IMG/VR virus record: IMGVR_UViG_2648501149_000023
Origin: a virus
Lineage: Duplodnaviria > Heunggongvirae > Uroviricota > Caudoviricetes
DNA length: 48,089 nucleotides
Reading direction: 5' to 3' (one strand)
A program made the position numbers and the translations under genes. The notes under the pieces are model-generated. The model saw only the letters and a list, made by a program, of their open reading frames with translations. It did not search any database and was not told where the DNA came from. Below are positions 4,062-38,382 of this stretch, one piece after another. Positions within the stretch are counted from its first letter, which is position 1. Every line of letters starts with the position of its first letter.

Positions 4062-4666
4062 TAAGCAGCCGCTCCTTCTAATTCGTCTCGTCTGATGTTG
4101 TAAACGTCCTGCGCTTTGTGCTGCTCCGGTGTGCCTTCGAGCATCTTCCACGCTTTGGCGAACGCCTGTTTAAGCTCTTCTACGGTGTTTTTCTGCATTG
4201 CTGCGTCAGTGAATGCTTTTAGAACCTGTTCAGGTGTAGGTGATGGTTTTGATTGCTTTGCTGCTGCGTTCTGCTGATGTTTATGCTCGTCGGTATCTGC
4301 ATCTTTCGCATCATCAATGCCGAACAAACCATTGAGGCAATACTTGCGTGCATAAGAGCTTGTAGCTCCCGTAACTTGTGCAGAATCCATTCCTTTCTTG
4401 CTTTCTTCCTCTCGTGCAAGAGCGGTTGCCGTATGACTGTTTTCGCCATCGGTAATAGTTGCCGTGGCTTTCACATAATACCGATCACCAATCAACACAA
4501 CTTCATCGCTGATTGATAAAAACAGGCCATTCAGTAACGGCTTAACGCCTTCAAGAATGTCTTCGCAGCTTCTGTATTTATATTTACCGAATGAGTTGTA
4601 CTGATTCTTTGGCGCATTCAGATTCTCCTGAATAGCTGCCAGTCTTGCGTAAAATTCTTTGCTCAT
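4061..4666 (-). CDS. erf: Erf-family single-strand annealing recombinase (P22 Erf-like)
   Basis: MSKEFYARLAAIQENLNAPKNQYNSFGKYKYRSCEDILEGVKPLL... matches the P22 Erf N-terminus from recall; ATG at 4666; the ORF track extends to 4696. Confidence 0.7.
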   Translation of the reverse strand: MSKEFYARLAAIQENLNAPKNQYNSFGKYKYRSCEDILEGVKPLLNGLFLSISDEVVLIGDRYYVKATATITDGENSHTATALAREEESKKGMDSAQVTGATSSYARKYCLNGLFGIDDAKDADTDEHKHQQNAAAKQSKPSPTPEQVLKAFTDAAMQKNTVEELKQAFAKAWKMLEGTPEQHKAQDVYNIRRDELEGAAA

Positions 4667-8047: not shown

Positions 8048-8701
8048 TTAACTAAATGTCTCTTCAGGCCACTGGCTGGCGATAACTTTCCCTACTACGG
8101 AACAGCTATCATTGCATGGGATCATTGGATATTGCGGGTTTAGTGGTTGTAGGAACACCTGACCGCTATCCCTGATCAGTTTCTTGAAGGTAAACTCGTC
8201 ACCACCAAGTCTGGCTATGCAGAAATCACCTGGCTCAACAGCCTGCTCAGGGTCAACGAGAATTAACATCCCGTCAGGAAAGCTTGGCTTGGATCCTGTT
8301 GGTGCGGTCATGGAATTACCTTCAACTTCAAGCCAAAACGCACAATCACTGGCTTTTTTGGTTGTGCTGACCCATCTCTCCGCATCGCCTTTGGTAAAGG
8401 TTCTAAGCTCAGGCGAGAACATCCCGGCCTGAACATGAGAAAAAACAGGGTACTCATATTGTTTTTTAACGGGGGCAGATGAGTATTCGCCAACAGGTGA
8501 AAATGTACCGTCGTGGTTGAATGAGACGTTATCAATACCAAGGTATTTAAACACCACACCAATCTCGTCAAGAGATGGATGACGAGATCCGCGCAACCAG
8601 TGACCAATTCCACCCTGCGTCATACCAAGCTCTTCAGCTAACTTCTCTTGAGTTATGCCGAGTTCTTTCATTCTGGATCTAGCCAGTTCATACCATTTCA
8701 T
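8048..8701 (-). CDS. cI: CI-type prophage repressor (HTH plus S24 LexA-like autocleavage domain)
   Basis: N-terminal HTH (...[21 protein letters not shown]...) and C-terminal S24 domain with G-N-S-M and F-K-K-L catalytic motifs (...[10 protein letters not shown]...[28 protein letters not shown]...); ATG at 8701 with AGGA at 7 nt spacing. Confidence 0.9.
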
Positions 8702-8818
8702 TTTCATATCCTTATTATTACGCTCTGTACTAAAACCATCCATGCACAAGATGTATTTTTTGTTTGCATTCCAAAAGTACATGTCGTATTATTGTTTCAT
8801 GGTTACTATGGAGGGCAT
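8702..8818. promoter_or_regulatory. OR / pR / pRM divergent control region
   Basis: 117-bp interval between divergent cI and cro starts with repeated AAAAGTACA-type elements; operators not individually resolved. Confidence 0.5.
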
Positions 8819-29214: not shown

Positions 29215-30564
29215 ATGGCTACGTGGCAACAGGGTATTAATTCTGGTGGTTTTCTGGCTGGCATCGGTACGCAAAATGAGAATGCGCCAAAGGCAAGCGA
29301 CATTAACGCAACGCTTGGTCTGATCCGCGAAAACAATGAACTGGCTCGCTCAGGTGCAAATAACGTTGGTCTGACCGCGTTACGTGGTCTGGCTGGAGTT
29401 GCTGATATTTACAATCAGGAACAGCAACAGAAAGCGATTAGTGCGTTCAATAAGGTTCACGCTGATGCATGGGCTTCTGGTGATCCATCGGGACTATTTA
29501 AGTTTGCCCAGGAAAATCCAGCGTTTGTTGCACAGGCACAACAGGCGTTTTCTGGTCTTAATGATCAGCAACGCAACGATATGGGCGATTTAGCCATGAG
29601 GGCTAACGTCGCTCTTTCTCAGGGACCGGAAGCCTACAGTAAATTCATTACTGACAACAAGGACAGGTTAAATCGCGTTGGTGCTAATGCTGACTGGATG
29701 ATTCAGACAGGTATCCAGAATCCAGAGCAGCTATCACACATGCTGACTACTATGTCTCTCGGTGCGCTTGGGCCAGAAAAGGCGTTTGCTGTTCAGGACA
29801 AGATGGTTGGTCGCCAGCAGGAGCAGCAAAGAATTAACGAAACCATTCGCAATAATGACATGACGAATGCGAGGGCTATTAGGGGGCAGGATCTTTCCTA
29901 TAAGGCTCAAATGGCAAGACTGAATCACGACAAGTATGTGTTTAAGCAGTCACAGGCGGCCCTTGAAAGAGCAGGACAACTTCAGGATATGGATGTTTTG
30001 TCTCTTAACTCACAGATAGCAGCGACGGGAATTGATCCTCTAACCGGTAAAGCTGCAACGTCAGCCAGAATGTCTCAGGCTAAGAGATGGCTTGATGGCA
30101 ACAATAATTACAACAATGCGTTGATTACTGGTGAGCGAGGGATAGAGAAAATAGATTCTTTGCTTGGTAAGAAGGAGCTTGAAGGTATCGGTCGCTTCGA
30201 AGGAAGAAATATAGATGGCTTCACAAGTGCTGAAGGGCTTGCAAACCGTAATGCGATAGAAGAATTAAAGTCGGGTGCGTTTGTCCAGAACGTGCAGACT
30301 ATGCGAGGTATGGGTAGCCTCTCCAATGCTGAAGGCCAAAAACTGGAAAACCTGATCGCGAAACTCGATATAACACAGCCTGAAGAGGTCGTCAGAAAAC
30401 AGTTATCTGAAATACGATCTCAATATTCTGTATTTCAAAAGGTTGCAGCAAGGGAGGCTGAATCAATGGGATACAGTTCATCAGGTTATGACACATATGT
30501 TAGTGAGCGAAAATCAGGAAGCGACAGCAATAAGTCCGGTTTCTCGTCTTTATGGGGTGATTAA
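29215..30564 (+). CDS. Ejection protein (P22 gp20-like)
   Basis: 449-aa ORF at the gp20 position; synteny and size. Confidence 0.6.
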
Positions 30565-32438
30565 TGGCTAAAGCATGGAAAGATGTTATCGCTTCTCCAC
30601 AGTATCAGGCGTTAACTGAAGAACAGAAAGCACAGGCTCAAGCGCAATATTTTGATGAGGTTGTTGCCCCTAAGGCTGGTGACAAATGGGCTGAAGCAAG
30701 AGATCAGTTTTATGCAGCATACCCTCCGCCTCAGCAGCAGAAAGAAGAACCATCATTGATGCAACAAGCTGGCGATTGGCTCACTGGTGGTCAAAGTGCA
30801 GGGCAAATTGCAGAGCAGGCTGGTCGTGGTCTGGTAAACATACCATTTGACGTATTGCAGGGTGGCGCAAGTCTGATTAATGCAATCAGCCAGGGGCTTG
30901 GTGGCTCCAAGGTTTTGGATGATGTTTATCGCCCTGTCGAGCGGCCGACAGACCCTTATGCGCAAGCTGGAGAAACAATTGGCGGGTATTTAGTTCCAGG
31001 AGTTGGAACGGCAGGAAGCATGGCTATTGGATCACTGGCAGAGGCCGCAAATCAGAAAGGCGATTTCGCACAAAATGCAGCCAAAAATGCCGGAGTTAAC
31101 CTTGCCGCTCAGGGTGTTCTTTCCGCAGCAGCAAAGGGAATAGGGCGTGGAATAACGGCTATAAAAGGTGATATTGCGCCAGAAGTGGCGAAGAAAATTG
31201 CCACATCAGAATCGATGGGCGTGACACCAATGACATCTGATGTTATCCCGCCGAAAAATGCTTTCACTCGTGGCCTTACTCAGGATGCCGAGGGGGCTTT
31301 GCTCGGGACAGGCTCAAAGAGAGCGGAGCAATATGCAACGCGTAGTAAACTGGTAAGCAATTATTTTGACCGTTTTGGTGAGTACAACCCTGATGATGTG
31401 GTGAAATCTCTTACCACCACGTTAAGGGGGCGGAAGGATGCCGCTGGCGCTGTTATCAATGACGTCACCAATAAAATGGGTAATGCCGCAGTTGATACCA
31501 CAAATACCATGAATGCTCTGAATACAGCGATCGCAAGACAGGAACGGCTTGGGACGTCTGCCAATCAAAGCCTGCTTACATCCTTGCGTAACCTACGTGA
31601 AGAATTAGCAAACCCTGCAACTGATTTGGATGTTACGTTTGATCTCTTGCGTCAGCACAGAACAGCATTTAGATCTAATGTTCAGGGAGATGCTATGGTC
31701 TTCCCCAACCAGGCAAAAGCAGCTACCAATATGGTAGAGAATGCAATGTCAAAAGACCTTCGTAACGCAGTTGCTAAAAACCTCGGTGCATCAGACGCAG
31801 CAAAATACCTTAAAGCAAATTCCGATTATGCAAACGTTTATAATAAGGTGCTTAATAAAAACATTGCCAACAAGCTCAACAAGGCAAGCAGTGAAGCCAG
31901 TCCTGAACTTATAAATACCGTTGTATTAAGCAGAAAACCATCTGACGTGAAACGAATCTGGAGCGCACTGGATGATAAAGGGAAAGATGCTATGCGTGCA
32001 GCTTACGTCAGCAAAATAGCGGAAAAGGCCGGCGACTCTCCAGCCAAGTTCATCACTGAAGTTAATAAGCTGAAATCTCAGTCAGGAGGTGAAATTTACA
32101 ACACTATTTTTTCTGGAAAGCACATGAAAGAACTTGATGCTCTTAATGAAGTTCTACAGCAAACAGCAAGGTCAGACACCGCAAATGTAGTAACTCAGAC
32201 GGGGCAATCGCAAGCCAACAGGATAAGGACGATTGGCGCAACTGCGACTCTTGGCGTATCAATGGGGCTTGAGGCTGGTTTCGGTGCAATGATGCGCTTG
32301 TATGAGTCCAAAGCAGCAAGGAATGCGCTCTTACGTCTGGCAAACACTAAAGCTGGAACGCCAGCCTATGAAAGAGCGCTGAATAACGCCGCAAATGCCA
32401 TCAGACCAATACTTGCCAATGATGCAACTGATCGCTAA
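30564..32438 (+). CDS. Ejection protein (P22 gp16-like)
   Basis: 624-aa ORF at the gp16 position; synteny and size. Confidence 0.6.
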
Positions 32439-32459
32439 GGGTTGATGTCATGGATGTTG

Positions 32460-33098
32460 TTAATTGCGAATGGAATCGCGGAACTCTTTGCTTGATAGAA
32501 AAGGATCTGTTCTCCTTAACTCATCATAGTTTTTATTAAACTTTCTTGCTTCACCTGGGTATCTGTTGAACAAAACATTGCAGAAAAAAGAGAGCAATAA
32601 CTCACATATGAATGCTAATACCCTGAAAAATAAAGGTATAAAAAGAAGGGAAGGTTCATTGAAGTCTCTATTCCAAACAAAATAGACAATCATCCCGACA
32701 TACCAAATTGATATCCCTATACTGATGATTGTTCCAACAGAGGTAACTACGATCCCGATTAAGTCGGACAGTCTGTTTGCCAGTAACTCATTTGAGTATC
32801 TTGCAATCATATACCGCCAACATTTTGCAATATCATCCTGATCTGTAGAGTCTTCTGGAATAGCTAGGCTTCTACATATTGAAGTAGCTCTTTTTTTCTC
32901 AACTCTTTTTGAGATCCATCCATTAAAGAGATACATCAACACCTGCGTTGCTATTCCTGCACCAAGTGATATCAAAGACATCCCCAAAAATCTCCATCCT
33001 GGAGATAGTGACTGGTACTGCCAAACAAAAAAAATTAAAAAACCCAATGAGCCTATGACATAGGCTGATGTATCGCTATATATATCTATTTTTTTCAT
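32460..33098 (-). CDS. Four-TM inner-membrane protein (SieA position; possible superinfection-exclusion or Abi effector)
   Basis: ATG at 33098 preceded by AAGGAG; four hydrophobic segments (YVIGSLGFLIFFVWQY, FLGMSLISLGAGIATQVLMYLF, LIGIVVTSVGTIISIGISIWYVGMIVYFVW, LLFIPLFFRVLAFICELLLSFFC); downstream of and co-oriented with the S24-like gene. Confidence 0.6.
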   Translation of the reverse strand: MKKIDIYSDTSAYVIGSLGFLIFFVWQYQSLSPGWRFLGMSLISLGAGIATQVLMYLFNGWISKRVEKKRATSICRSLAIPEDSTDQDDIAKCWRYMIARYSNELLANRLSDLIGIVVTSVGTIISIGISIWYVGMIVYFVWNRDFNEPSLLFIPLFFRVLAFICELLLSFFCNVLFNRYPGEARKFNKNYDELRRTDPFLSSKEFRDSIRN

Positions 33099-33162
33099 TG
33101 AGTAGCCACTCCTTAGTTTTGAGCAGAACACCGGATGATAATGTGTCGCTTCCTAAAGGATA

Positions 33163-33804
33163 TCAAAGCAACGGGATTTCAAGGTAAACTGCGGTTGCCA
33201 AAATACTAACATCTTCATTTCTAACAAGAATATTAGGATACATTGGGTTTAGGGATACTAAGTTTGTCTCTATTTCACCAATGTAAACCTGCTTGAAGCT
33301 CAATATTTGCTCTTTATCCAATGATGCTATTACATAATCTTTGCTTTTAGCTTTTACTAGAGGGCTGAACGTGACAACTGATCCTCTGGGAAAGCTAATA
33401 CCTGAACTTGTAGTCATAGCTTCACCTTCAATAGTCAATGCAAATGCAGAGTCACCAACATTGTATATTGCCGGATGAAATCTAGACGATGAATGTTCAC
33501 CTGTGTTTAGGTAATGCATAACTTCATCTAGTTTGAGGATTGGTATTTGCTTTACCAGAACGTCAGGCATGACGTTTTTTGTTCCAGGCCCCTGACCTTC
33601 ACCCAGAGCTAACCACTCAGCCGTAGTGCCTAATGCGTTGGCTAATGCCTGCAATACACGAAGCCGTGGTTTAGCCTCACCACCCTCGTATGCAGCTATT
33701 TGACGTTGAACAACACCAGCTAATTTTGACAACTGCGCCTGCGTCATACCCCTGGACTGTCTTGCCAGAGATACTCTTGATGGGAATTGATCGTCAAAAT
33801 TCAT
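33163..33804 (-). CDS. Repressor-like HTH plus S24 LexA-like domain protein with the catalytic Ser replaced by Ala
   Basis: N-terminal XRE-type HTH (...MTQAQLSKLAGVVQRQIAAYEGG...); C-terminal domain aligns with this window's own cI: IEGEAMTTS versus VEGNSMTAP (Ser to Ala) and LSFKQV versus FTFKKL (Lys kept); ends ...NPMYPNI like cI ...NPQYPMI. Confidence 0.75.
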   Translation of the reverse strand: MNFDDQFPSRVSLARQSRGMTQAQLSKLAGVVQRQIAAYEGGEAKPRLRVLQALANALGTTAEWLALGEGQGPGTKNVMPDVLVKQIPILKLDEVMHYLNTGEHSSSRFHPAIYNVGDSAFALTIEGEAMTTSSGISFPRGSVVTFSPLVKAKSKDYVIASLDKEQILSFKQVYIGEIETNLVSLNPMYPNILVRNEDVSILATAVYLEIPLL

Positions 33805-33903
33805 TAGTTCACCATAAAAAATTCATTGACTCATACTGAGTGTGAGTGAATAATCAAACTACAAAAAGTGAGATTATGAGTTTTTCAAAAACAGGAGTGC
33901 ATA
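33805..33903. promoter_or_regulatory. Divergent promoter/operator region between the S24-like gene and the arc-like gene
   Basis: 99-bp AT-rich interval with inverted/direct repeats (GACTCATA...TATGAGTT; ACTCA-tac-TGAGT). Confidence 0.4.
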
Positions 33904-34077
33904 ATGACTGAAAAGATATCTTCCATCAAGCCGCGTCAGGTTCGTTTTACAGAAAAGGTTGATTCACATATCCGCGAATCAGCAAAAAGATGCCATAGGT
34001 CAATTCAGGCAGAGATAGCTTATCGAATGGAGTTATTGATGAAACTTGAGGCAAAGGGCGATGTTGTCATCCAATAA
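33904..34077 (+). CDS. Arc/Mnt-family ribbon-helix-helix repressor (Arc-like, 57 aa)
   Basis: Hand translation MTEKISSIKPRQVRFTEKVDSHIRESAKRCHRSIQAEIAYRMELLMKLEAKGDVVIQ has an RHH-type pattern (beta strand, then ...RS...EI...); below the ORF-track cutoff. Confidence 0.55.
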   Translation: MTEKISSIKPRQVRFTEKVDSHIRESAKRCHRSIQAEIAYRMELLMKLEAKGDVVIQ

Positions 34078-34160
34078 AAATAGTGAAGCCCGGCAGTGCG
34101 CGAACACAAACCGGGCCTCTATGTCAGTAACCGTATGCAAGGAAACTAACATGAATATTG
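34078..34160 (-). ncRNA. Possible sar-like antisense RNA across the ant RBS (hairpin plus U-run on the minus strand)
   Basis: GCCCGG...CCGGGC hairpin at about 34084-34112 is followed on the minus strand by TTCACTATTTTTATTGG; the transcript would be complementary to the ant RBS and start codon; a TACAAT -10-like hexamer lies on the minus strand inside the ant 5' end. Start is not mapped. Confidence 0.3.
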
Positions 34161-34777
34161 TAGCAAAATCAGATTACAACTTCCACGGAGTTGAGTTGGT
34201 GCCCACCCGTGATATGCATGGTGTTTGGTTTACATCATCTAATATTGCATCTGCACTTAAATATGCAAATAGCCGTGCAGTAACAATGATTTATAACAAG
34301 TATAGCGATGAGTTTAGCGCCGGAATGACTCAGGTACTCGAAGTGAGTACCTCAGGAAATTATCGCAAAAAAGTGCGAGTTTTCTCACTACGCGGTGCCC
34401 ACCTAATCGCGATGTTTGCTCGCACTCCGGTAGCCAAAGAGTTCCGCCGCTGGGTGCTGGATATTTTGGATCGGCAGGCAGAATGCTCACCGATTGCAAA
34501 ACAGTTTACTGACGAAGAACTGGTTAATCTCTGCTACTTACAATTGTGGATGGAGAAGAGTCAACAAATGTGCAAACACATCTACCCAGGAATGAAGCAA
34601 ATTGGTTCTGAGCTTTCAGGAAGAATTTACGATATTGCATATGAGACTCGCTATATGTCAGAAGAAACCAAGAAATCACTTCTTCGTGAAATGAAGAATC
34701 TTGATACCAACAATTTTGTCGTAAAGAACGCTCAGCCAATGCTGACAAAACTGCGCGGCGAGGAATGGATTCATTGA
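34151..34777 (+). CDS. Antirepressor with Bro-N/AntA-type N-terminal domain
   Basis: ATG at 34151 preceded by AAGGA; ...FHGVELVPTRDMHGVWFTSSNIASALKYANSRAVTMIYNKYSDEF...KVRVFSLRGAHLIAMFARTPVAKEFRRWVLDIL... fits the Bro-N pattern (recall). Confidence 0.65.
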   Translation: MNIVAKSDYNFHGVELVPTRDMHGVWFTSSNIASALKYANSRAVTMIYNKYSDEFSAGMTQVLEVSTSGNYRKKVRVFSLRGAHLIAMFARTPVAKEFRRWVLDILDRQAECSPIAKQFTDEELVNLCYLQLWMEKSQQMCKHIYPGMKQIGSELSGRIYDIAYETRYMSEETKKSLLREMKNLDTNNFVVKNAQPMLTKLRGEEWIH

Positions 34778-34865: not shown

Positions 34866-35591
34866 ATGACTTTGAAGAATGTAGCAAACATCGGATCCGT
34901 TGTCACGGATAAAACCATTGACAGCCAAAGTCTTCTGATGATGGTTAATGAAGCTCGCAAGTTATGTGGAGAGCCATCAGTACGTAACAACAAATTCATC
35001 GAGAAAATTGAGGATGAATTGGAGGGCGAGACCTACACAAAAAGTGTAGGTCGGAAAAACGGGGCTGACATTGATGTTATCTCCATGACTATCAAGCAGG
35101 CGCTTCGTGTTGCTGCTCGCGAATCTAAAGCAGTTCGCCGAACACTTGTAGACAAACTTGAAAGTATGCAAGAAGCGCACATTAAAAGCGGTAAATCGTC
35201 GAGTGGACTTGTTGAGTATCGCCAGGCTCGAACATTGAAAATGACGGTTGAAGCTGTTACCAATCTGTTAGATTTGATGCCAAATCTTGCGCCGGAAGCA
35301 AAGCAGACTGCGGCAGCAAGCATAATCAACCCGATAGTTGGTTTTAATGCAATACCTCTTCCAGCAATAGAAGAGCATTACTACTCAGCAGGGGAGGTTG
35401 CAGAGCAGCTTGGAGTAACGGCAAACAAGATTGGTCGCATTGCTAACGCAAACAACCTCAAAACTGAGCAGTACGGGAAGTTCTTCTTGGATAAATCTGC
35501 GCATTCAAGCAAACAGGTGGAAGCATTCCGCTACAATGCGGAGGGTGTTAAAGCACTACAACACCTGATTCATGGGAGCAATGTTGCATAA
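34866..35591 (+). CDS. Hypothetical immI-region protein (242 aa; possible antirepressor-associated or Rha-like)
   Basis: ATG at 34866 preceded by AAGGA; weak resemblance of ...EARKLCGEPSVRNNKFIEKIE... to Rha-type N-termini; function unassigned. Confidence 0.45.
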   Translation: MTLKNVANIGSVVTDKTIDSQSLLMMVNEARKLCGEPSVRNNKFIEKIEDELEGETYTKSVGRKNGADIDVISMTIKQALRVAARESKAVRRTLVDKLESMQEAHIKSGKSSSGLVEYRQARTLKMTVEAVTNLLDLMPNLAPEAKQTAAASIINPIVGFNAIPLPAIEEHYYSAGEVAEQLGVTANKIGRIANANNLKTEQYGKFFLDKSAHSSKQVEAFRYNAEGVKALQHLIHGSNVA

Positions 35592-35812
35592 TGGCAAAGA
35601 AAAGATATGGCATTATGCCGCCAAGAATCAAAGGAAGAGCCAGGGTAAAAGGAGATGCTGGAAGGTATCACATTCTTGGAGTTCTGTGGCATGAGAGAGC
35701 TTTAATTTTAAGTAGACCTCATGGGTACATTGAAAAGGTATCTATAGATAGAGTAGAGATTCTTCCCCTTACACCTGAAGAAGAAGAAACGTACGGACTT
35801 TTTGATAACTAA
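35591..35812 (+). CDS. Hypothetical small protein (73 aa)
   Basis: ORF overlapping the upstream stop; followed by a strong terminator. Confidence 0.4.
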   Translation: MAKKRYGIMPPRIKGRARVKGDAGRYHILGVLWHERALILSRPHGYIEKVSIDRVEILPLTPEEEETYGLFDN

Positions 35813-35821
35813 CCAACTAAA

Positions 35822-35850
35822 CCCGCTTAATTGCGGGTTTTTTCTTTTCT
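35822..35850 (+). terminator. Intrinsic terminator (ACCCGC/GCGGGT hairpin plus T-run)
   Basis: ACCCGCttaattGCGGGTTTTTTCTTTTC just after the 35591..35812 ORF; the minus-strand Mnt-like gene ends within it. Confidence 0.7.
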
Positions 35851-36084
35851 AAGGATATCAGCCACAACTTCTTTTACTCGTTCCGAGATTAATGAGGCCA
35901 GCCTCTCTTCTTCATCACGATACCCGCTTACAGGTGATGGTTTGGAGAGTGATTCTTCCATCGTAGCCACAATTTCGGAATTGATAGACCTGTTATTCAT
36001 TTTTGCACGTTGCTTAATCTTAGCGTGCAACTCGTGCGTAAGCCTCAAGTGGAACTGCGCCTCATCGTATTTGCTGTACATCAT
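35827..36084 (-). CDS. mnt: Mnt-like ribbon-helix-helix repressor (85 aa)
   Basis: ...AQFHLRLTHELHAKIKQRAKMNNRSINSEIVATMEESLSKPSPVSGYRDEEERLA... parallels P22 Mnt (...RSMNSELLQIVQDALSKPSPVTGYRND..., recall); ATG at 36084 with GGTGAGG RBS. The longer ORF-track version (to 36558) runs antisense into the tailspike gene start. Confidence 0.7.
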   Translation of the reverse strand: MMYSKYDEAQFHLRLTHELHAKIKQRAKMNNRSINSEIVATMEESLSKPSPVSGYRDEEERLASLISERVKEVVADILRKEKTRN

Positions 36085-36216
36085 CAATGCCTCACCAAAT
36101 GGGTGGAATGGCATCGTAAAACCTACTGTACAAATCAACAATCGTACCATTTCGGTATGCAACAAACACCAACCGTAGCCATGCTTCGGTGATTCCTTGT
36201 ATCTGGAGCAAATTAA

Positions 36217-38382
36217 ATGACAGATTCGATAAATGCCAATGTTGTAGTGAGTATGCCTTCGCAACTCTTCACTATGGCGCGTTCTTTTAAAGCCGTAGCC
36301 AATGGTAAAATTTATATCGGTAAAATTGACACTGACCCGGTAAACCCTGAAAACCAGATTCAGGTTTATATAGAGAACGAAGACGGCTCTCACGTTCCTG
36401 TTTCGCAACCAATCATCATTAACGCTGCTGGTTATCCGGTATATAACGGACAAATTGCCAAATTCGTTACTGTACAGGGCCATTCTATGGCTGTTTATGA
36501 TGCATACGGTGCGCAGCAGTTTTATTTCCCTAATGTGTTGAAGTATGAGCCGGATCAATTAAGGTTGGAGCTTGAATCATCTGGTGGAGCAGGATTGATA
36601 GGTGGTGTTTCGAAGCCTATTACTTTTTTTGGTGCTATTGGTGATGGATTAACAAACAATACGCAGGCATTTAACGATGCAGAGATATTAGAATTCAATG
36701 ACATCTACATTCCTGATGGTGTTTATAATGTAAATAATATTAACTTAAATAAGAGATATTGGGGGCCTGGCATAGTAGTGATTAATTACCAGACTGAATA
36801 TTCTGGCTCTGGTGTTAACGACATGACCGTGTCAGGAATATACAATGGACAGCAAGATCTAAATGCAATTGTAAGAATAAAAGAAGCTTCAAATCCTGAT
36901 AAGCTTGAATTCAGTACAGATAATGGAGTTACATGGCATGACACGATAGACGTGTACAATCCAATCGATGACAGTGTATCTCCGCAACCAATCGTAATAC
37001 TTGCAGGCGGGGTGGATTTTTTCGTGAGTGGATTGAAGATAAACTTTTCTTCAACCACTGGACATACAGTAAATGACTCATGGTCATTTTTCATTCCTTC
37101 CAATCCATCAGTAATAAACACGGGAAGTGGCAGCATCGTTAAATCAGGAAGCGTTATTTTTAATGTTAGCGGAAACAATGATACTAATACTTCCGCTGGA
37201 AAAGACTCATTAGGCGGTGGAAACGTAGGAGCTAACAATACCGCATATGGGTGGAAGAGTTTGCACTCAAACACTACAGGATACGCAAATACCGCGTCTG
37301 GGATTCAGTCTATGGAAAACAATAAGACTGGTAAAAACAATTGTGCATACGGTGCTGATTCTCTAAGAGCTAACGTATCTGGTTCTGATAACGTAGCGGT
37401 TGGGGTCTTTGCGTCCGGAGCAAACACAACCGGGTACGGTAACACTGGACTTGGTAACGATGCCAATAGGTACAATGAAACAGGATTCGGAAATACCGCA
37501 GCGGGTGTGCAGGCACTGTACCACAACAAGGCCGGTAATGAGAACACAGCTTTCGGTGAATACGCATTACGCGGAGGAAATTCCAGCCTACCTACGGGAA
37601 CATCCATTCAGTATTCCGTCGCTGTAGGAGCTAAAGCCGGTTTCAACGCGTTAGGTAATAATAATACAGCTATAGGTTACGAGGCGCTATATTCTGCATC
37701 AGGATCTGATAATGTTGGTATTGGATTCGATGCAGGGTTTAAAGTAACGGCTGGTGCTTTCAATGTATTTTTAGGTTCTAATTCTGGTAACGGGTCAGAG
37801 CAGGCTACAGATGTGACAAACTGCGTCCTTATCGGAGATAATACAAAATCAACCGGAAGTAACGCAGTAGCTATCGGTAGTGGGGTAATTGCCGCTCAGA
37901 ATACTGTAGCTATAGGTAATAGTGAGCATGAATTATTCTTGCATTATGGGAAATTTATACCACAAATTGATAATGCTTTTGATATTGGTGGGCCGGATGC
38001 GAGATATAAAACAATATATGCAACTACAGGAATGATAAATACATCAAATGAAATGTTGAAAACAAAACTAACAGACATTGATGTTGCTGAAAAAAAAGCT
38101 GCACTAGAAATAAAAGATAATATTAAAAAGTTTAAGATGCTGGATTCTGTTGAGGTAAAGGGATTTGATGGTGCTAGGTGGCATTTTGGTGTTGGAGCTC
38201 AAACTGTTGGTAATATAATGAGGAAGCACGGACTTGATCCTAGTAAGTATGGGTTTTGGTGTCACGATAAAACGCATCGCGAACACATGACTGGAAATAT
38301 AGATATCTTTTGTGAAAGTTATGGTATAAGATATGACGAACTTGCAATGTTTATATTGGCATCAATATCTTTATGTGAATAA
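36217..38382 (+). CDS. Tailspike protein (P22 gp9-type head-binding domain, distinct receptor-binding domain)
   Basis: Residues 1 to about 110 ([60 protein letters not shown]...[13 protein letters not shown]...NVLKYEPDQ) match the P22 gp9 N-terminus (recall); the rest is N/G/T-rich repeat sequence (GNTxxG...); C-terminal SNEMLKTKL... segment could be an intramolecular chaperone module. Confidence 0.85.

What the first reader, a model, noticed from the sequence alone, without database searches (positions are those of the whole stretch)
32460..33804. Serine-less S24 repressor-like protein in an operon with a 4-TM membrane protein
The 213-aa product of 33163..33804 has an HTH plus S24 LexA-like fold that aligns closely with the cI of this same prophage, but the catalytic serine motif reads G-E-A-M instead of G-N-S-M while the lysine (F-K-Q-V) is kept. 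It should therefore be unable to autocleave in response to RecA, like a built-in ind- allele. Immediately downstream on the same strand is a 4-TM membrane protein. The pair sits where P22 carries sieA and mnt, divergent from an arc/ant module, and is also reminiscent of lambda cI-rexA-rexB, where a repressor is co-transcribed with a membrane abortive-infection effector. It may be a prophage-expressed exclusion or abortive-infection module governed by a non-inducible repressor; both proteins are unclassified here.
Basis: partly seen in the sequence, partly recalled or inferred. Interest (0 to 1): 0.7.

Follow-up and report, generated by a model that had tools for sequence, protein, structure and literature searches.

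The report
Known SieA plus antirepressor-control repressor
The membrane protein is the already-tested SieA superinfection-exclusion protein of the P22-like E. coli prophage HS1, and its serine-less cI-like neighbour is most likely not its regulator but a stand-in for P22's Mnt repressor that keeps the prophage's antirepressor genes switched off.

Summary
The sequence-level observation holds. 33163-33804(-) encodes a 213-aa HTH + Peptidase_S24 protein. It has Ala128 where LexA and lambda cI have the nucleophilic Ser, keeps the Lys (K170), and also lacks the Ala-Gly cleavage site. 32460-33098(-) encodes a multi-pass membrane protein.

The membrane protein is not unclassified: it is type B SieA of prophage HS1. 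Leavitt et al. 2024 cloned this gene alone and showed that it excludes P22-like phages.

The two genes are not a conserved pair. Among 5,426 complete E. coli genomes the repressor gene occurs in 28 and this sieA in 21, and they are adjacent in only 4.

What always travels with the repressor (14 of 15 loci from several genera and phage types) is a divergent operon, usually exactly 99 bp away: a 57-aa ribbon-helix-helix gene followed by antirepressor gene(s). In prophages NC22 and ACN001, the segment [HTH-S24 + control region + RHH57] is replaced by [Mnt-like + control region + Arc-like], between the same sieA and ant genes.

Best reading: a non-cleavable Mnt analogue that represses the ant operon. 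This role is untested. Loss of catalytic residues recurs across the family. Interest is modest.

The parts
32460..33098 (-). sieA, type B (HS1 SieA): 212-aa inner-membrane superinfection-exclusion protein. The mechanical ORF extends to a GTG at 33131.
   Evidence: PHROG 7745 'SieA-like' E 7.5e-21. tblastn to P22 SieA gives 27.7% identity over 159 aa, E 1e-11. The FxRYPxEAxxFNK motif is present as FNRYPGEARKFNK, with hydrophobic segments. It lies directly after the gene-16 homologue. The gene is 100% identical to E. coli HS ECHS_RS01600. Exclusion activity for HS1 sieA (EcHS_A0321) is published in PMC10883804.
33138..33166 (-). Promoter-like element TTGATA-17-CATTAT upstream of sieA, followed by a conserved leader and an AAGGAG RBS.
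   Evidence: Consensus scan. The -10 element, leader and RBS are identical in NC22, where a different gene lies upstream. The whole string is retained in JEP4 in front of a different 62-aa ORF. The leader part resembles that of P22 sieA. Function is not shown.
33163..33804 (-). 213-aa cI/LexA-type HTH + S24-fold repressor with a degenerate active site (Ala128 for Ser, Lys170 kept, no Ala-Gly site). Proposed maintenance repressor of the ant operon (Mnt analogue).
   Evidence: Pfam, PHROG, PDB and AlphaFold2/Foldseek results. Family alignment. Conserved divergent linkage to RHH57-ant. Swapped for an Mnt-like gene in NC22/ACN001. dN 0.13-0.18 against saturated dS versus L004 and L006.
33805..33903 (.). 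99-bp divergent control region. It holds a Pant-like promoter TTGACT-17-AATAAT (33826-33854, plus strand), an ACTCA/TGAGT repeat cluster at 33829-33847 that overlaps the -35 hexamer, and a conserved AAACTCATAATCTCAC element at 33868-33883.
   Evidence: Promoter scan, 10 of 12 matches. The length is exactly 99 bp in 9 of 11 loci, and the motifs ACTCAT and ATGAGTCAA are conserved. Both motifs are unique to this region within the window. Which protein binds which site is inferred, not shown.
33904..34077 (+). 57-aa probable ribbon-helix-helix protein (RHH57), first gene of the ant operon. Proposed Arc analogue.
   Evidence: PHROG 10182 E 2.3e-37. Weak Pfam hits to ParD_like (8e-4) and Arc (0.011). 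hhalign against an Arc/Mnt alignment gives probability 75%, E 2.4e-5, over the strand, helix A and helix B. In NC22 a bona fide Arc-family 57-aa gene occupies the same slot.
34151..34777 (+). Antirepressor 1 (Bro-N + P22AR_C domains).
   Evidence: Pfam P22_AR_C E 4.6e-14 and Bro-N E 2.2e-10. PHROG 245 'anti-repressor Ant' E 1.2e-65.
34866..35591 (+). Antirepressor-like protein 2. It is intact here and interrupted by IS3 in strain HS.
   Evidence: PHROG 1726 'anti-repressor' E 2.2e-100. Comparison with L001.
35591..35812 (+). 73-aa ORF of unknown function, last gene of the ant operon.
   Evidence: Conserved in JEP4 (98.6%) and in NC22. No family hit.
35819..35840 (.). Bidirectional intrinsic terminator (AAACCCGC-6-GCGGGTTT, followed by a T run) that ends the ant operon.
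   Evidence: Inverted repeat, 8 of 8 complementary. Sequence read.
35827..36081 (-). True Mnt homologue (RHH), convergent with the ant operon and divergent from the tailspike gene.
   Evidence: 48% identity to P22 Mnt, E 1e-19. Alignment A4. Annotated 'Arc family' in RefSeq and 'mnt' in JEP4.
8048..8707 (-). Primary immunity repressor (cI/C2 type) with an intact Ser/Lys dyad and an Ala-Gly site. It is the probable SOS sensor of this prophage.
   Evidence: Translation shows VQAG, VEGNSM and TFKKL. The HS prophage is mitomycin-C inducible (bioRxiv 10.64898/2026.05.19.726188).
30564..32438 (+). Gene 16-type ejection (DNA transfer) protein. It marks the left border of the 'ant moron' and is one of the proteins that SieA acts against.
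   Evidence: RefSeq annotation 'DNA transfer protein'. P22 mutants that escape SieA map to gp16 and gp20 (PMC10883804).

Best explanation
The interval is the left half of the secondary-immunity region ('ant moron') of a P22-like prophage, HS1/phiHS4 type. It holds two functionally separate units.

(1) sieA (32460-33098) makes a type B SieA inner-membrane protein. In the lysogen it blocks DNA delivery by incoming P22-like phages, acting against the gp16/gp20 ejection-protein conduit. This is published for this gene. It is probably expressed from its own promoter and leader in the 64-bp gap, with read-through from the upstream gene possible.

(2) The HTH-S24 protein (33163-33804) is the prophage-expressed maintenance repressor of the divergent operon RHH57-ant1-ant2-orf73. 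That makes it a non-homologous replacement of P22 Mnt. I infer the following steps:
- It dimerises through its S24-fold C-terminal domain, as lambda cI does.
- It binds the ACTCA/TGAGT repeats that overlap the -35 hexamer of the Pant-like promoter in the fixed 99-bp control region.
- This keeps the antirepressors silent, so the primary cI/C2 repressor is not inactivated.
- RHH57 plays the Arc role, giving negative feedback on the ant operon after infection.
- Because Ser128 is Ala and the Ala-Gly site is absent, RecA* cannot trigger self-cleavage.
- SOS induction therefore runs through the catalytically intact primary repressor, not through ant.

Shown here or in the literature: the identities, folds, residues, gene linkage, cassette swap and SieA activity. 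Inferred: DNA binding to Pant, the dimerisation role, expression in the lysogen and non-cleavage.
For: SieA:
- PHROG 7745 E 7.5e-21. P22 SieA tblastn E 1e-11 to 1e-20.
- Motif FNRYPGEARKFNK.
- 100% identity to the E. coli HS gene.
- Leavitt et al. cloned HS1 sieA with 106 bp of upstream DNA and found full exclusion of P22, L, MG40, MG178 and LP7.

Repressor fold and residues.

Linkage:
- In L004-L015, L017 and L018 (14 of 15 loci; E. coli/Salmonella-type, Yersinia, Klebsiella, Tatumella, Providencia, Morganella), the homologue sits divergent from an antirepressor operon, which begins with an RHH57 homologue in 12 of the 14. No SieA homologue is found in any of them. Providencia phage PSTNGR2lys has the same gene layout.
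- The control region is exactly 99 bp in 9 of 11 loci, with conserved ACTCAT and ATGAGTCAA motifs.

Cassette swap:
- NC22 is 99.5% identical to the window up to 33144 and 94.8% identical from 34071 onward.
- Between those points it carries an Mnt-like RHH gene, a different control region and an Arc-family 57-aa gene.

Other support:
- Separability in E. coli genomes: 28, 21 and 4.
- Purifying selection: dN 0.13-0.18 with saturated dS.
- Villafane et al. 2008 noted that HS-1 has ant genes but no recognisable arc, and so must control ant differently from P22.
Against: - No direct evidence that the HTH-S24 protein binds the 99-bp region or represses Pant.
- No convincing sigma-70 promoter for its own gene was found.
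- The ACTCA/TGAGT repeats have variable spacing between loci, so the operator assignment is loose. Some of that conservation may simply be the -35 hexamer of Pant.
- A true Mnt homologue also exists in the same moron (35827-36081). It could be the real Pant repressor acting in trans, although no similar palindrome lies near Pant.
- No terminator is predicted between the repressor gene and sieA, so co-transcription is not excluded.
- Leavitt's ectopic construct could have been transcribed from outside the insert.
Confidence: 0.7

Rival explanations
1. First reader's model. The repressor and the membrane protein form one operon (like lambda cI-rexA-rexB), and the non-inducible repressor governs an exclusion or abortive-infection effector.
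For: - Same strand, a gap of only 64 bp, and no terminator predicted between the genes.
- In NC22 the Mnt-like gene occupies the same upstream position, so 'maintenance repressor followed by sieA' is a recurrent layout.
- Read-through from a lysogenically active promoter would be a sensible way to express sieA.
Against: - HS1 SieA works without the repressor gene.
- The pair is adjacent in only 4 of the 28 and 21 E. coli genomes that carry one or the other.
- JEP4 has an identical repressor with a different cargo gene behind the same promoter-like string and leader.
- No candidate operator motif lies upstream of sieA.
- P22 sieA has its own annotated promoter, placed after a terminator.
- SieA blocks DNA entry and is not abortive infection.
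- No RexA/RexB or PADLOC hits.
Confidence: 0.15
2. The true Mnt homologue (35827-36081) is the Pant repressor. The HTH-S24 protein has some other role, for example a heteroimmunity repressor aimed at other phages, or a regulator of late or tailspike read-through.
For: - An Mnt homologue 48% identical to P22 Mnt is present in the same moron.
- cI-type repressors can confer immunity in trans.
Against: - The Mnt homologue lies 2.2 kb from Pant, beyond a bidirectional terminator. The only palindrome seen near it (CACCAAATGGGTG, 36093-36105) sits at its own 5' end.
- Mnt-like genes next to the tailspike gene occur in P22-like phages with no ant at all, such as L and ST64T.
- NC22 has both this distal Mnt homologue and a second Mnt-like gene in the slot the HTH-S24 gene occupies here. 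The slot, not the distal gene, therefore corresponds to P22 mnt.
- The HTH-S24 family is tied to ant operons in phage backbones that lack the distal Mnt.
Confidence: 0.1
3. The S24-like gene is a decaying relic of a once-cleavable repressor and no longer has a function.
For: Catalytic residues and the cleavage site have been lost repeatedly in the family.
Against: - The ORF is intact and 98-100% conserved in 28 E. coli genomes.
- The helix-turn-helix segment RQIAAYEG is invariant or nearly so across genera.
- dN is far below saturated dS, including in the C-terminal domain.
- The fixed 99-bp architecture is maintained.
Confidence: 0.05

Closest known systems
P22 SieA, and specifically the type B SieA of E. 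coli prophage HS1 (Leavitt et al., mBio 2024, PMC10883804)
   Same: It is the same gene, 100% identical to the E. coli HS locus. It holds the same position after gene 16, has the same FxRYPxEAxxFNK motif, and has the extra N-terminal transmembrane segment typical of type B.
   Different: Nothing material. It is about 24-28% identical to P22 (type A) SieA. In this window the flanking ant2 gene is intact, whereas in strain HS it is interrupted by IS3.
P22 immI region: Mnt | Arc - Ant (with sar RNA)
   Same: - A maintenance-repressor gene lies divergent from a small RHH gene followed by antirepressor gene(s).
- It sits between gene 16/sieA and the tailspike gene.
- There is a strong Pant-like promoter in a short shared control region.
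- The repressor, control region and RHH segment is swapped directly for Mnt/Arc in sister prophages.
   Different: - The repressor is an HTH + S24-fold (cI/LexA-type) protein, not an RHH protein.
- RHH57 is only remotely Arc-like.
- There are two antirepressor-type genes plus a 73-aa ORF.
- An additional true Mnt homologue sits at the far end.
- A sar-like antisense RNA was not looked for.
Lambda cI / P22 C2 / LexA (MEROPS S24 self-cleaving repressors), and their engineered non-cleavable mutants such as LexA S119A (PDB 1jhh)
   Same: Two-domain architecture. The C-terminal fold matches at TM 0.84 to the lambda cI CTD. The G-x-x-M and F-K motifs are kept.
   Different: It is naturally Ser->Ala, has no Ala-Gly site, and is modelled with a helix (residues 92-101) where the cleavage-site loop would be. 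It is encoded in the secondary immunity region, not the primary one.
Antirepressor circuits controlled by host LexA, recalled from my own knowledge and not checked here (Gifsy-1/3, 186 Tum, N15 AntC, SPC32H Ant)
   Same: A LexA-superfamily repressor sits over an antirepressor gene.
   Different: In those systems the repressor is host LexA and the point is SOS coupling. Here the repressor is phage-encoded and appears built to be SOS-blind.

Membership tests
SieA (P22-type superinfection exclusion), membrane protein 32460-33098 | Sequence homology to P22 SieA | tested here: met
   PHROG 7745 E 7.5e-21. tblastn 27.7% identity over 159 aa, E 1e-11. E 1e-20 in the small database.
SieA (P22-type superinfection exclusion), membrane protein 32460-33098 | Located in a P22-like prophage between the gene 16 and gene 9 homologues | tested here: met
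   It sits directly after the gene 16 homologue, with the tailspike gene at 36217.
SieA (P22-type superinfection exclusion), membrane protein 32460-33098 | Conserved cytoplasmic motif FxRYPxEAxxFNK (PMC10883804) | tested here: met
   FNRYPGEARKFNK at residues 177-189.
SieA (P22-type superinfection exclusion), membrane protein 32460-33098 | Multi-pass inner-membrane topology, with an extra N-terminal TM in type B | tested here: inconclusive
   A Kyte-Doolittle profile shows three strong segments plus a weaker N-terminal one. No dedicated topology predictor was available. The paper reports TMHMM predictions for type B.
SieA (P22-type superinfection exclusion), membrane protein 32460-33098 | Excludes P22-like phages by blocking DNA entry | not testable with these tools
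   Published for HS1 sieA (EcHS_A0321) cloned into Salmonella. The window gene is 100% identical to the HS gene.
LexA/cI S24 self-cleaving repressors, protein 33163-33804 | N-terminal DNA-binding domain plus C-terminal S24 fold | tested here: met
   Pfam HTH_3 and Peptidase_S24. AlphaFold2/Foldseek match to 3bdn and 1f39.
LexA/cI S24 self-cleaving repressors, protein 33163-33804 | Nucleophilic Ser in G-x-S-M | tested here: not met
   Ala128 (codon GCT) aligns with lambda cI Ser149.
LexA/cI S24 self-cleaving repressors, protein 33163-33804 | General-base Lys | tested here: met
   Lys170 aligns with lambda cI Lys192.
LexA/cI S24 self-cleaving repressors, protein 33163-33804 | Ala-Gly (or Cys-Gly) scissile bond in the linker | tested here: not met
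   VQAG of the prophage cI aligns with ILKL, and the linker contains no AG or CG.
LexA/cI S24 self-cleaving repressors, protein 33163-33804 | RecA*-stimulated or alkaline self-cleavage | not testable with these tools
   Needs biochemistry. Predicted to be absent.
P22 immI-type antirepressor control module | Repressor gene divergent from an operon that starts with a small RHH gene and continues with ant | tested here: met
   The layout is present in the window and in 14 of 15 related loci.
P22 immI-type antirepressor control module | The maintenance repressor is an Mnt (RHH) homologue | tested here: not met
   It is an HTH-S24 protein. It is therefore an analogue, not a member. Mnt/Arc occupy the same slot in NC22 and ACN001.
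P22 immI-type antirepressor control module | The first operon gene is an Arc-type RHH protein | tested here: inconclusive
   hhalign probability 75%, E 2.4e-5. Pfam Arc E 0.011, below the cut-off.
P22 immI-type antirepressor control module | Antirepressor homologous to P22 Ant-type proteins | tested here: met
   P22AR_C and Bro-N domains. PHROG 245 E 1.2e-65 and PHROG 1726 E 2.2e-100.
P22 immI-type antirepressor control module | The repressor binds an operator that overlaps Pant | not testable with these tools
   Only candidate motifs are available, at 33829-33847 and 33868-33883.
Lambda cI-rexAB-like repressor/effector operon | Conserved co-occurrence of, and homology to, the effector genes | tested here: not met
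   The genes are adjacent in 4 of the 28 and 21 genomes. No Rex or PADLOC hit.

The most novel reading that the evidence does not exclude
[HTH-S24 | 99-bp control region | RHH57 - antirepressor] may be a self-contained, horizontally mobile secondary-immunity cassette.
- It has inserted into unrelated temperate-phage backbones: the P22-like ant moron, a lambda-like tail cluster, and integrase-adjacent and tail-fibre-adjacent sites.
- Within it, a cI-type protease domain has been converted into a pure dimerisation module.
- The catalytic dyad has been lost independently at least twice. One loss is Ser->Ala in the HS1 clade. The other is Ser->Ala plus Lys->Arg in the Providencia/Morganella clade.
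- Within the HS1 clade there is a single-nucleotide TCT/GCT Ser/Ala polymorphism, which might toggle residual SOS sensitivity of antirepressor expression.
Probability: 0.35. Interest if true: 0.5.

Novelty: new variant of a known kind. Interest (0 to 1): 0.3.

Why it matters
The SieA half adds nothing new, because the gene has already been characterised.

The repressor half offers an answer to a small open point raised in 2008: how HS-1-type P22-like prophages control their antirepressors without a recognisable arc/mnt pair. It also gives a natural example of an S24 pseudo-protease retained as a DNA-binding repressor. If confirmed, this shows that Mnt/Arc and cI-like/RHH57 are interchangeable regulatory cassettes. 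It also shows that secondary-immunity modules move between phage types as units. That matters for predicting prophage inducibility, for example when P22-like phages such as JEP4 are used in phage cocktails.

Tried and rejected
- PADLOC and NCBIfam scans of all seven proteins in the moron gave only generic HTH hits and no defence-system membership.
- A promoter scan found no acceptable sigma-70 promoter for the repressor gene. My hand-picked candidates (TTGATT-16-TATGAG, and a CATAAT inside the conserved element) are weak or not conserved, so I do not commit to either.
- I tried to define a single palindromic operator. ACTCA-3-TGAGT is perfect in the window, but its left half and the spacing vary between loci, so I report it only as a candidate.
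- dN/dS could not be given as a ratio because dS is saturated.
- Literature searches for a described LexA-like or serine-less ant repressor in P22-like phages found nothing specific.
- The N-terminal 'MSQ...' extensions in some database homologues start at the conserved ATGAGTCAA DNA motif. In the window that frame stops after three codons, so I treated them as gene-calling artefacts.
- The terminator-like hits on the minus strand at 33066-33050 and 33007-32979 lie inside the sieA ORF and were disregarded.
Full report
**Origin and observation**

Region 32300-34200 of the window is 100% identical to E. coli HS (NC_009800.1 325302-327202). It lies in a P22-like (Lederbergvirus-type) prophage, between the gene-16 ejection-protein gene and the tailspike gene.

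The 213-aa product of 33163-33804(-) hits Pfam HTH_3 (E 9.3e-13) and Peptidase_S24 (E 1.3e-12), and PHROG 4 'transcriptional repressor' (E 7.5e-30). Alignments to lambda cI structures put Ala128 (G-E-A-M) opposite Ser149 and Lys170 (F-K-Q-V) opposite Lys192.

The prophage's primary repressor at 8048-8707(-) has VQAG, VEGNSM and TFKKL. The two proteins are homologous but only 24% identical, so 'aligns closely' is an overstatement. In that alignment the VQAG cleavage site of cI faces ILKL, so the scissile Ala-Gly bond is missing as well as the nucleophile.

An AlphaFold2 model built on 22 homologues (pLDDT 84.9) finds full-length lambda cI as its best PDB match. Its C-terminal domain superposes on 1f39 at TM 0.84 and 2.1 A. 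Its N-terminal domain superposes on the 434 and P22 C2 HTH domains. The model has a helix (residues 92-101) where cleavable relatives carry the cleavage-site loop.

It is established knowledge that LexA S119A and lambda cI S149A do not self-cleave. Non-cleavability is therefore a sound inference, although it is not tested here.

**The membrane protein is a known, tested SieA**

- The product of 32460-33098(-) starts at an ATG with an AAGGAG RBS. The mechanical ORF runs on to a GTG at 33131.
- It matches PHROG 7745 'superinfection exclusion SieA-like' at E 7.5e-21 and P22 SieA by tblastn (27.7% over 159 aa, E 1e-11).
- It carries the family motif FxRYPxEAxxFNK as FNRYPGEARKFNK, together with the expected hydrophobic segments.

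Leavitt et al. (mBio 2024, PMC10883804) define three SieA types and name the HS1 prophage protein of E. coli HS (EcHS_A0321) as type B. They amplified that gene with 106 bp of upstream DNA, placed it in the Salmonella chromosome, and found full exclusion of P22, L, MG40, MG178 and LP7, indistinguishable from P22 SieA. [quoted passage not shown] It is not an abortive-infection system.

So this half of the finding is already known, and SieA needs no HTH-S24 protein to work.

**The two genes are not a cassette**

Among 5,426 complete E. coli genomes:
- The repressor gene is present in 28.
- This sieA is present in 21.
- Both are adjacent in only 4, three of which are copies of strain HS.

Phage JEP4 carries an identical repressor gene but no sieA. 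In the sieA slot it has an unannotated 62-aa two-TM ORF. That ORF sits behind the same promoter-like string, leader and RBS (TTGATA...CATTATCATC...CTGCTCAAAACTAAGGAG) that precedes sieA here and in NC22. The leader part also resembles the one upstream of P22 sieA.

This looks like a conserved expression signal for an exchangeable cargo gene. It argues for independent expression of sieA. Read-through from the upstream gene is not excluded, because no terminator is predicted between them.

**What the repressor is really linked to**

Homologues found in the protein database and in GTDB genomes were placed in their contexts. In 14 of 15 loci the HTH-S24 gene sits divergent from an antirepressor operon, that is, one or more antirepressor genes (Bro-N/P22AR_C, P22_AR_N or PHROG 1726 type), preceded in 12 of the 14 by a homologue of the 57-aa protein. 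These loci come from Escherichia/Salmonella-type contigs, Yersinia, Klebsiella, Tatumella, Providencia and Morganella. No SieA homologue occurs in any of them.

The backbones differ:
- A lambda-like tail cluster, between the tape-measure and minor-tail genes (L004).
- A tailspike phage with a different tape measure (L006).
- A site next to an integrase (L007).
- A site next to a tail fibre, in Providencia phage PSTNGR2lys.

The intergenic control region is exactly 99 bp in 9 of 11 loci. It contains two conserved elements...AAACTCAT... and ...ATGAGTCAA.... The second is the reverse complement of TTGACTCAT, which includes the -35 hexamer of a strong Pant-like promoter (TTGACT-17-AATAAT, 33826-33854, 10 of 12 matches).

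In the window the ACTCA/TGAGT pentamers cluster at 33829-33847, including the perfect palindrome ACTCA-TAC-TGAGT. A second conserved element lies at 33868-33883. Neither recurs elsewhere in the window beyond chance, and neither lies upstream of sieA.

The 57-aa protein is a probable ribbon-helix-helix protein. hhalign against Arc/Mnt gives probability 75% and E 2.4e-5 across the strand, helix A and helix B. Pfam gives ParD_like 8e-4 and Arc 0.011.

**The cassette swap**

Prophages in E. coli NC22 and ACN001 have the same sieA (99.5% identity up to window position 33144) and the same ant genes (94.8% identity from 34071 onward). Between those points they carry an Mnt-like RHH gene, a different control region and a bona fide Arc-family 57-aa gene.

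The segment [HTH-S24 + 99-bp region + RHH57] therefore occupies the place of [Mnt + operators + Arc]. This is the strongest evidence that the HTH-S24 protein is the functional analogue of Mnt, the maintenance repressor of the ant operon, and that RHH57 is the analogue of Arc.

Villafane et al. 2008 had drawn this HS-1 'ant moron'. They remarked that it has ant genes but no apparent arc, and so must control ant differently from P22. I found no later paper that assigns this role.

**Catalytic decay is a family trait**

| Group | Nucleophile motif | Lys position |
|---|---|---|
| HS1 clade (window, P0002, P0004, P0005/L006) | GEAM or GDAM (Ala) | Lys kept |
| L004 (81% identical, nested in the HS1 clade) | GDSM (Ser) | Lys kept |
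| Providencia/Morganella clade (L017, L018, P0022) | DPAM (Ala) | Lys->Arg |
| P0012 | Ser kept | Lys->Arg |
| L016 | Ser kept | Lys->Met |

- In L004 the Ser codon is TCT, against the Ala codon GCT in the window and in L006.
- Only P0016 keeps an Ala-Gly at the expected position.
- The protein is nonetheless under purifying selection. dN is 0.13-0.18 with saturated dS against L004 and L006, including the C-terminal domain. The recognition-helix segment RQIAAYEG is invariant or nearly so.
- The simplest reading is that the S24 fold is retained for dimerisation, as in lambda cI, while self-cleavage has been dispensable for a long time.

**Mechanism proposed**

In the lysogen, HTH-S24 dimers occupy the repeats over Pant and silence RHH57-ant1-ant2-orf73. 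The primary cI/C2 repressor is then not attacked by antirepressor. After infection, or on escape from repression, RHH57 gives Arc-like feedback.

SOS induction proceeds through the catalytically intact primary repressor. The HS prophage is mitomycin-C inducible. The ant circuit stays blind to RecA*. SieA is made independently and excludes related phages.

Shown here or in the literature: the identities, residues, fold, linkage, swap and SieA activity. Inferred: DNA binding, the repression target, dimerisation, expression in the lysogen and non-cleavage.

**Caveats and rivals**

- A true Mnt homologue (48% identical to P22 Mnt) sits at 35827-36081(-), beyond a bidirectional terminator at 35819-35840. 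It has a palindrome at its own 5' end and could also act on Pant.
- Against that, such distal Mnt genes occur in P22-like phages with no ant at all. NC22 has both the distal Mnt and the slot Mnt.
- PADLOC and NCBIfam gave no defence-system assignment.

**Verdict**

SieA is already known. The repressor is an uncharacterised but unsurprising variant: a cI-type pseudo-protease standing in for Mnt. Interest is about 0.3.

Noticed in passing
L002 (phage JEP4, MT740315) 4141-4329, minus strand: An unannotated 62-aa ORF with two hydrophobic segments occupies the sieA slot. It sits behind the same promoter-like string, leader and RBS as HS1 sieA. It may be an alternative exclusion or cargo gene. Of the 28 E. 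coli genomes carrying the repressor gene, 24 lack the adjacent HS1 sieA.
   Followed up: partly
window 35827-36081 (-), 35819-35840, 36093-36105: A true Mnt homologue (48% identical to P22 Mnt) lies convergent with the ant operon, behind a bidirectional terminator. A palindrome, CACCAAATGGGTG, sits just upstream of its start, between it and the tailspike gene. This may reflect autoregulation or control of tailspike read-through.
   Followed up: partly
window 34866-35591 versus L001 8567-10521: The window is not strain HS itself. The second antirepressor-like gene is intact here, whereas in E. coli HS it is split by an IS3 element.
   Followed up: yes
window 33805-33903; L004, L006, L007, L009, L010, L011, L017, L018: The divergent control region is exactly 99 bp long in 9 of 11 loci from several genera, despite substantial sequence divergence. 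This implies a strict architectural constraint.
   Followed up: partly
L007, L009, L010 versus window 33904-34077: The 57-aa RHH protein is 81-88% identical in loci where the adjacent HTH-S24 protein is only 44-46% identical. This suggests either a recombination boundary inside the control region or much stronger constraint on the small protein.
   Followed up: no
L004 2121-9355: The HTH-S24 | RHH57 - Bro-N - pRha cassette is inserted inside a lambda-like tail gene cluster, between the tape-measure and minor-tail genes. This moron position parallels the P22 gene16/gene9 slot.
   Followed up: no
window 33826-33837 (minus strand ATGAGTCAATGA): The conserved ATGAGTCAA motif is called as an N-terminal 'MSQ...' extension in several database homologues. 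In the window that frame stops after three codons, so those extensions are probably gene-calling artefacts over a DNA-level regulatory motif.
   Followed up: partly
window 35591-35812 (+): A 73-aa ORF of unknown function overlaps the ant2 stop codon by one base. It is conserved with ant2 in JEP4 and NC22 and has no family hit in Pfam-independent libraries.
   Followed up: no
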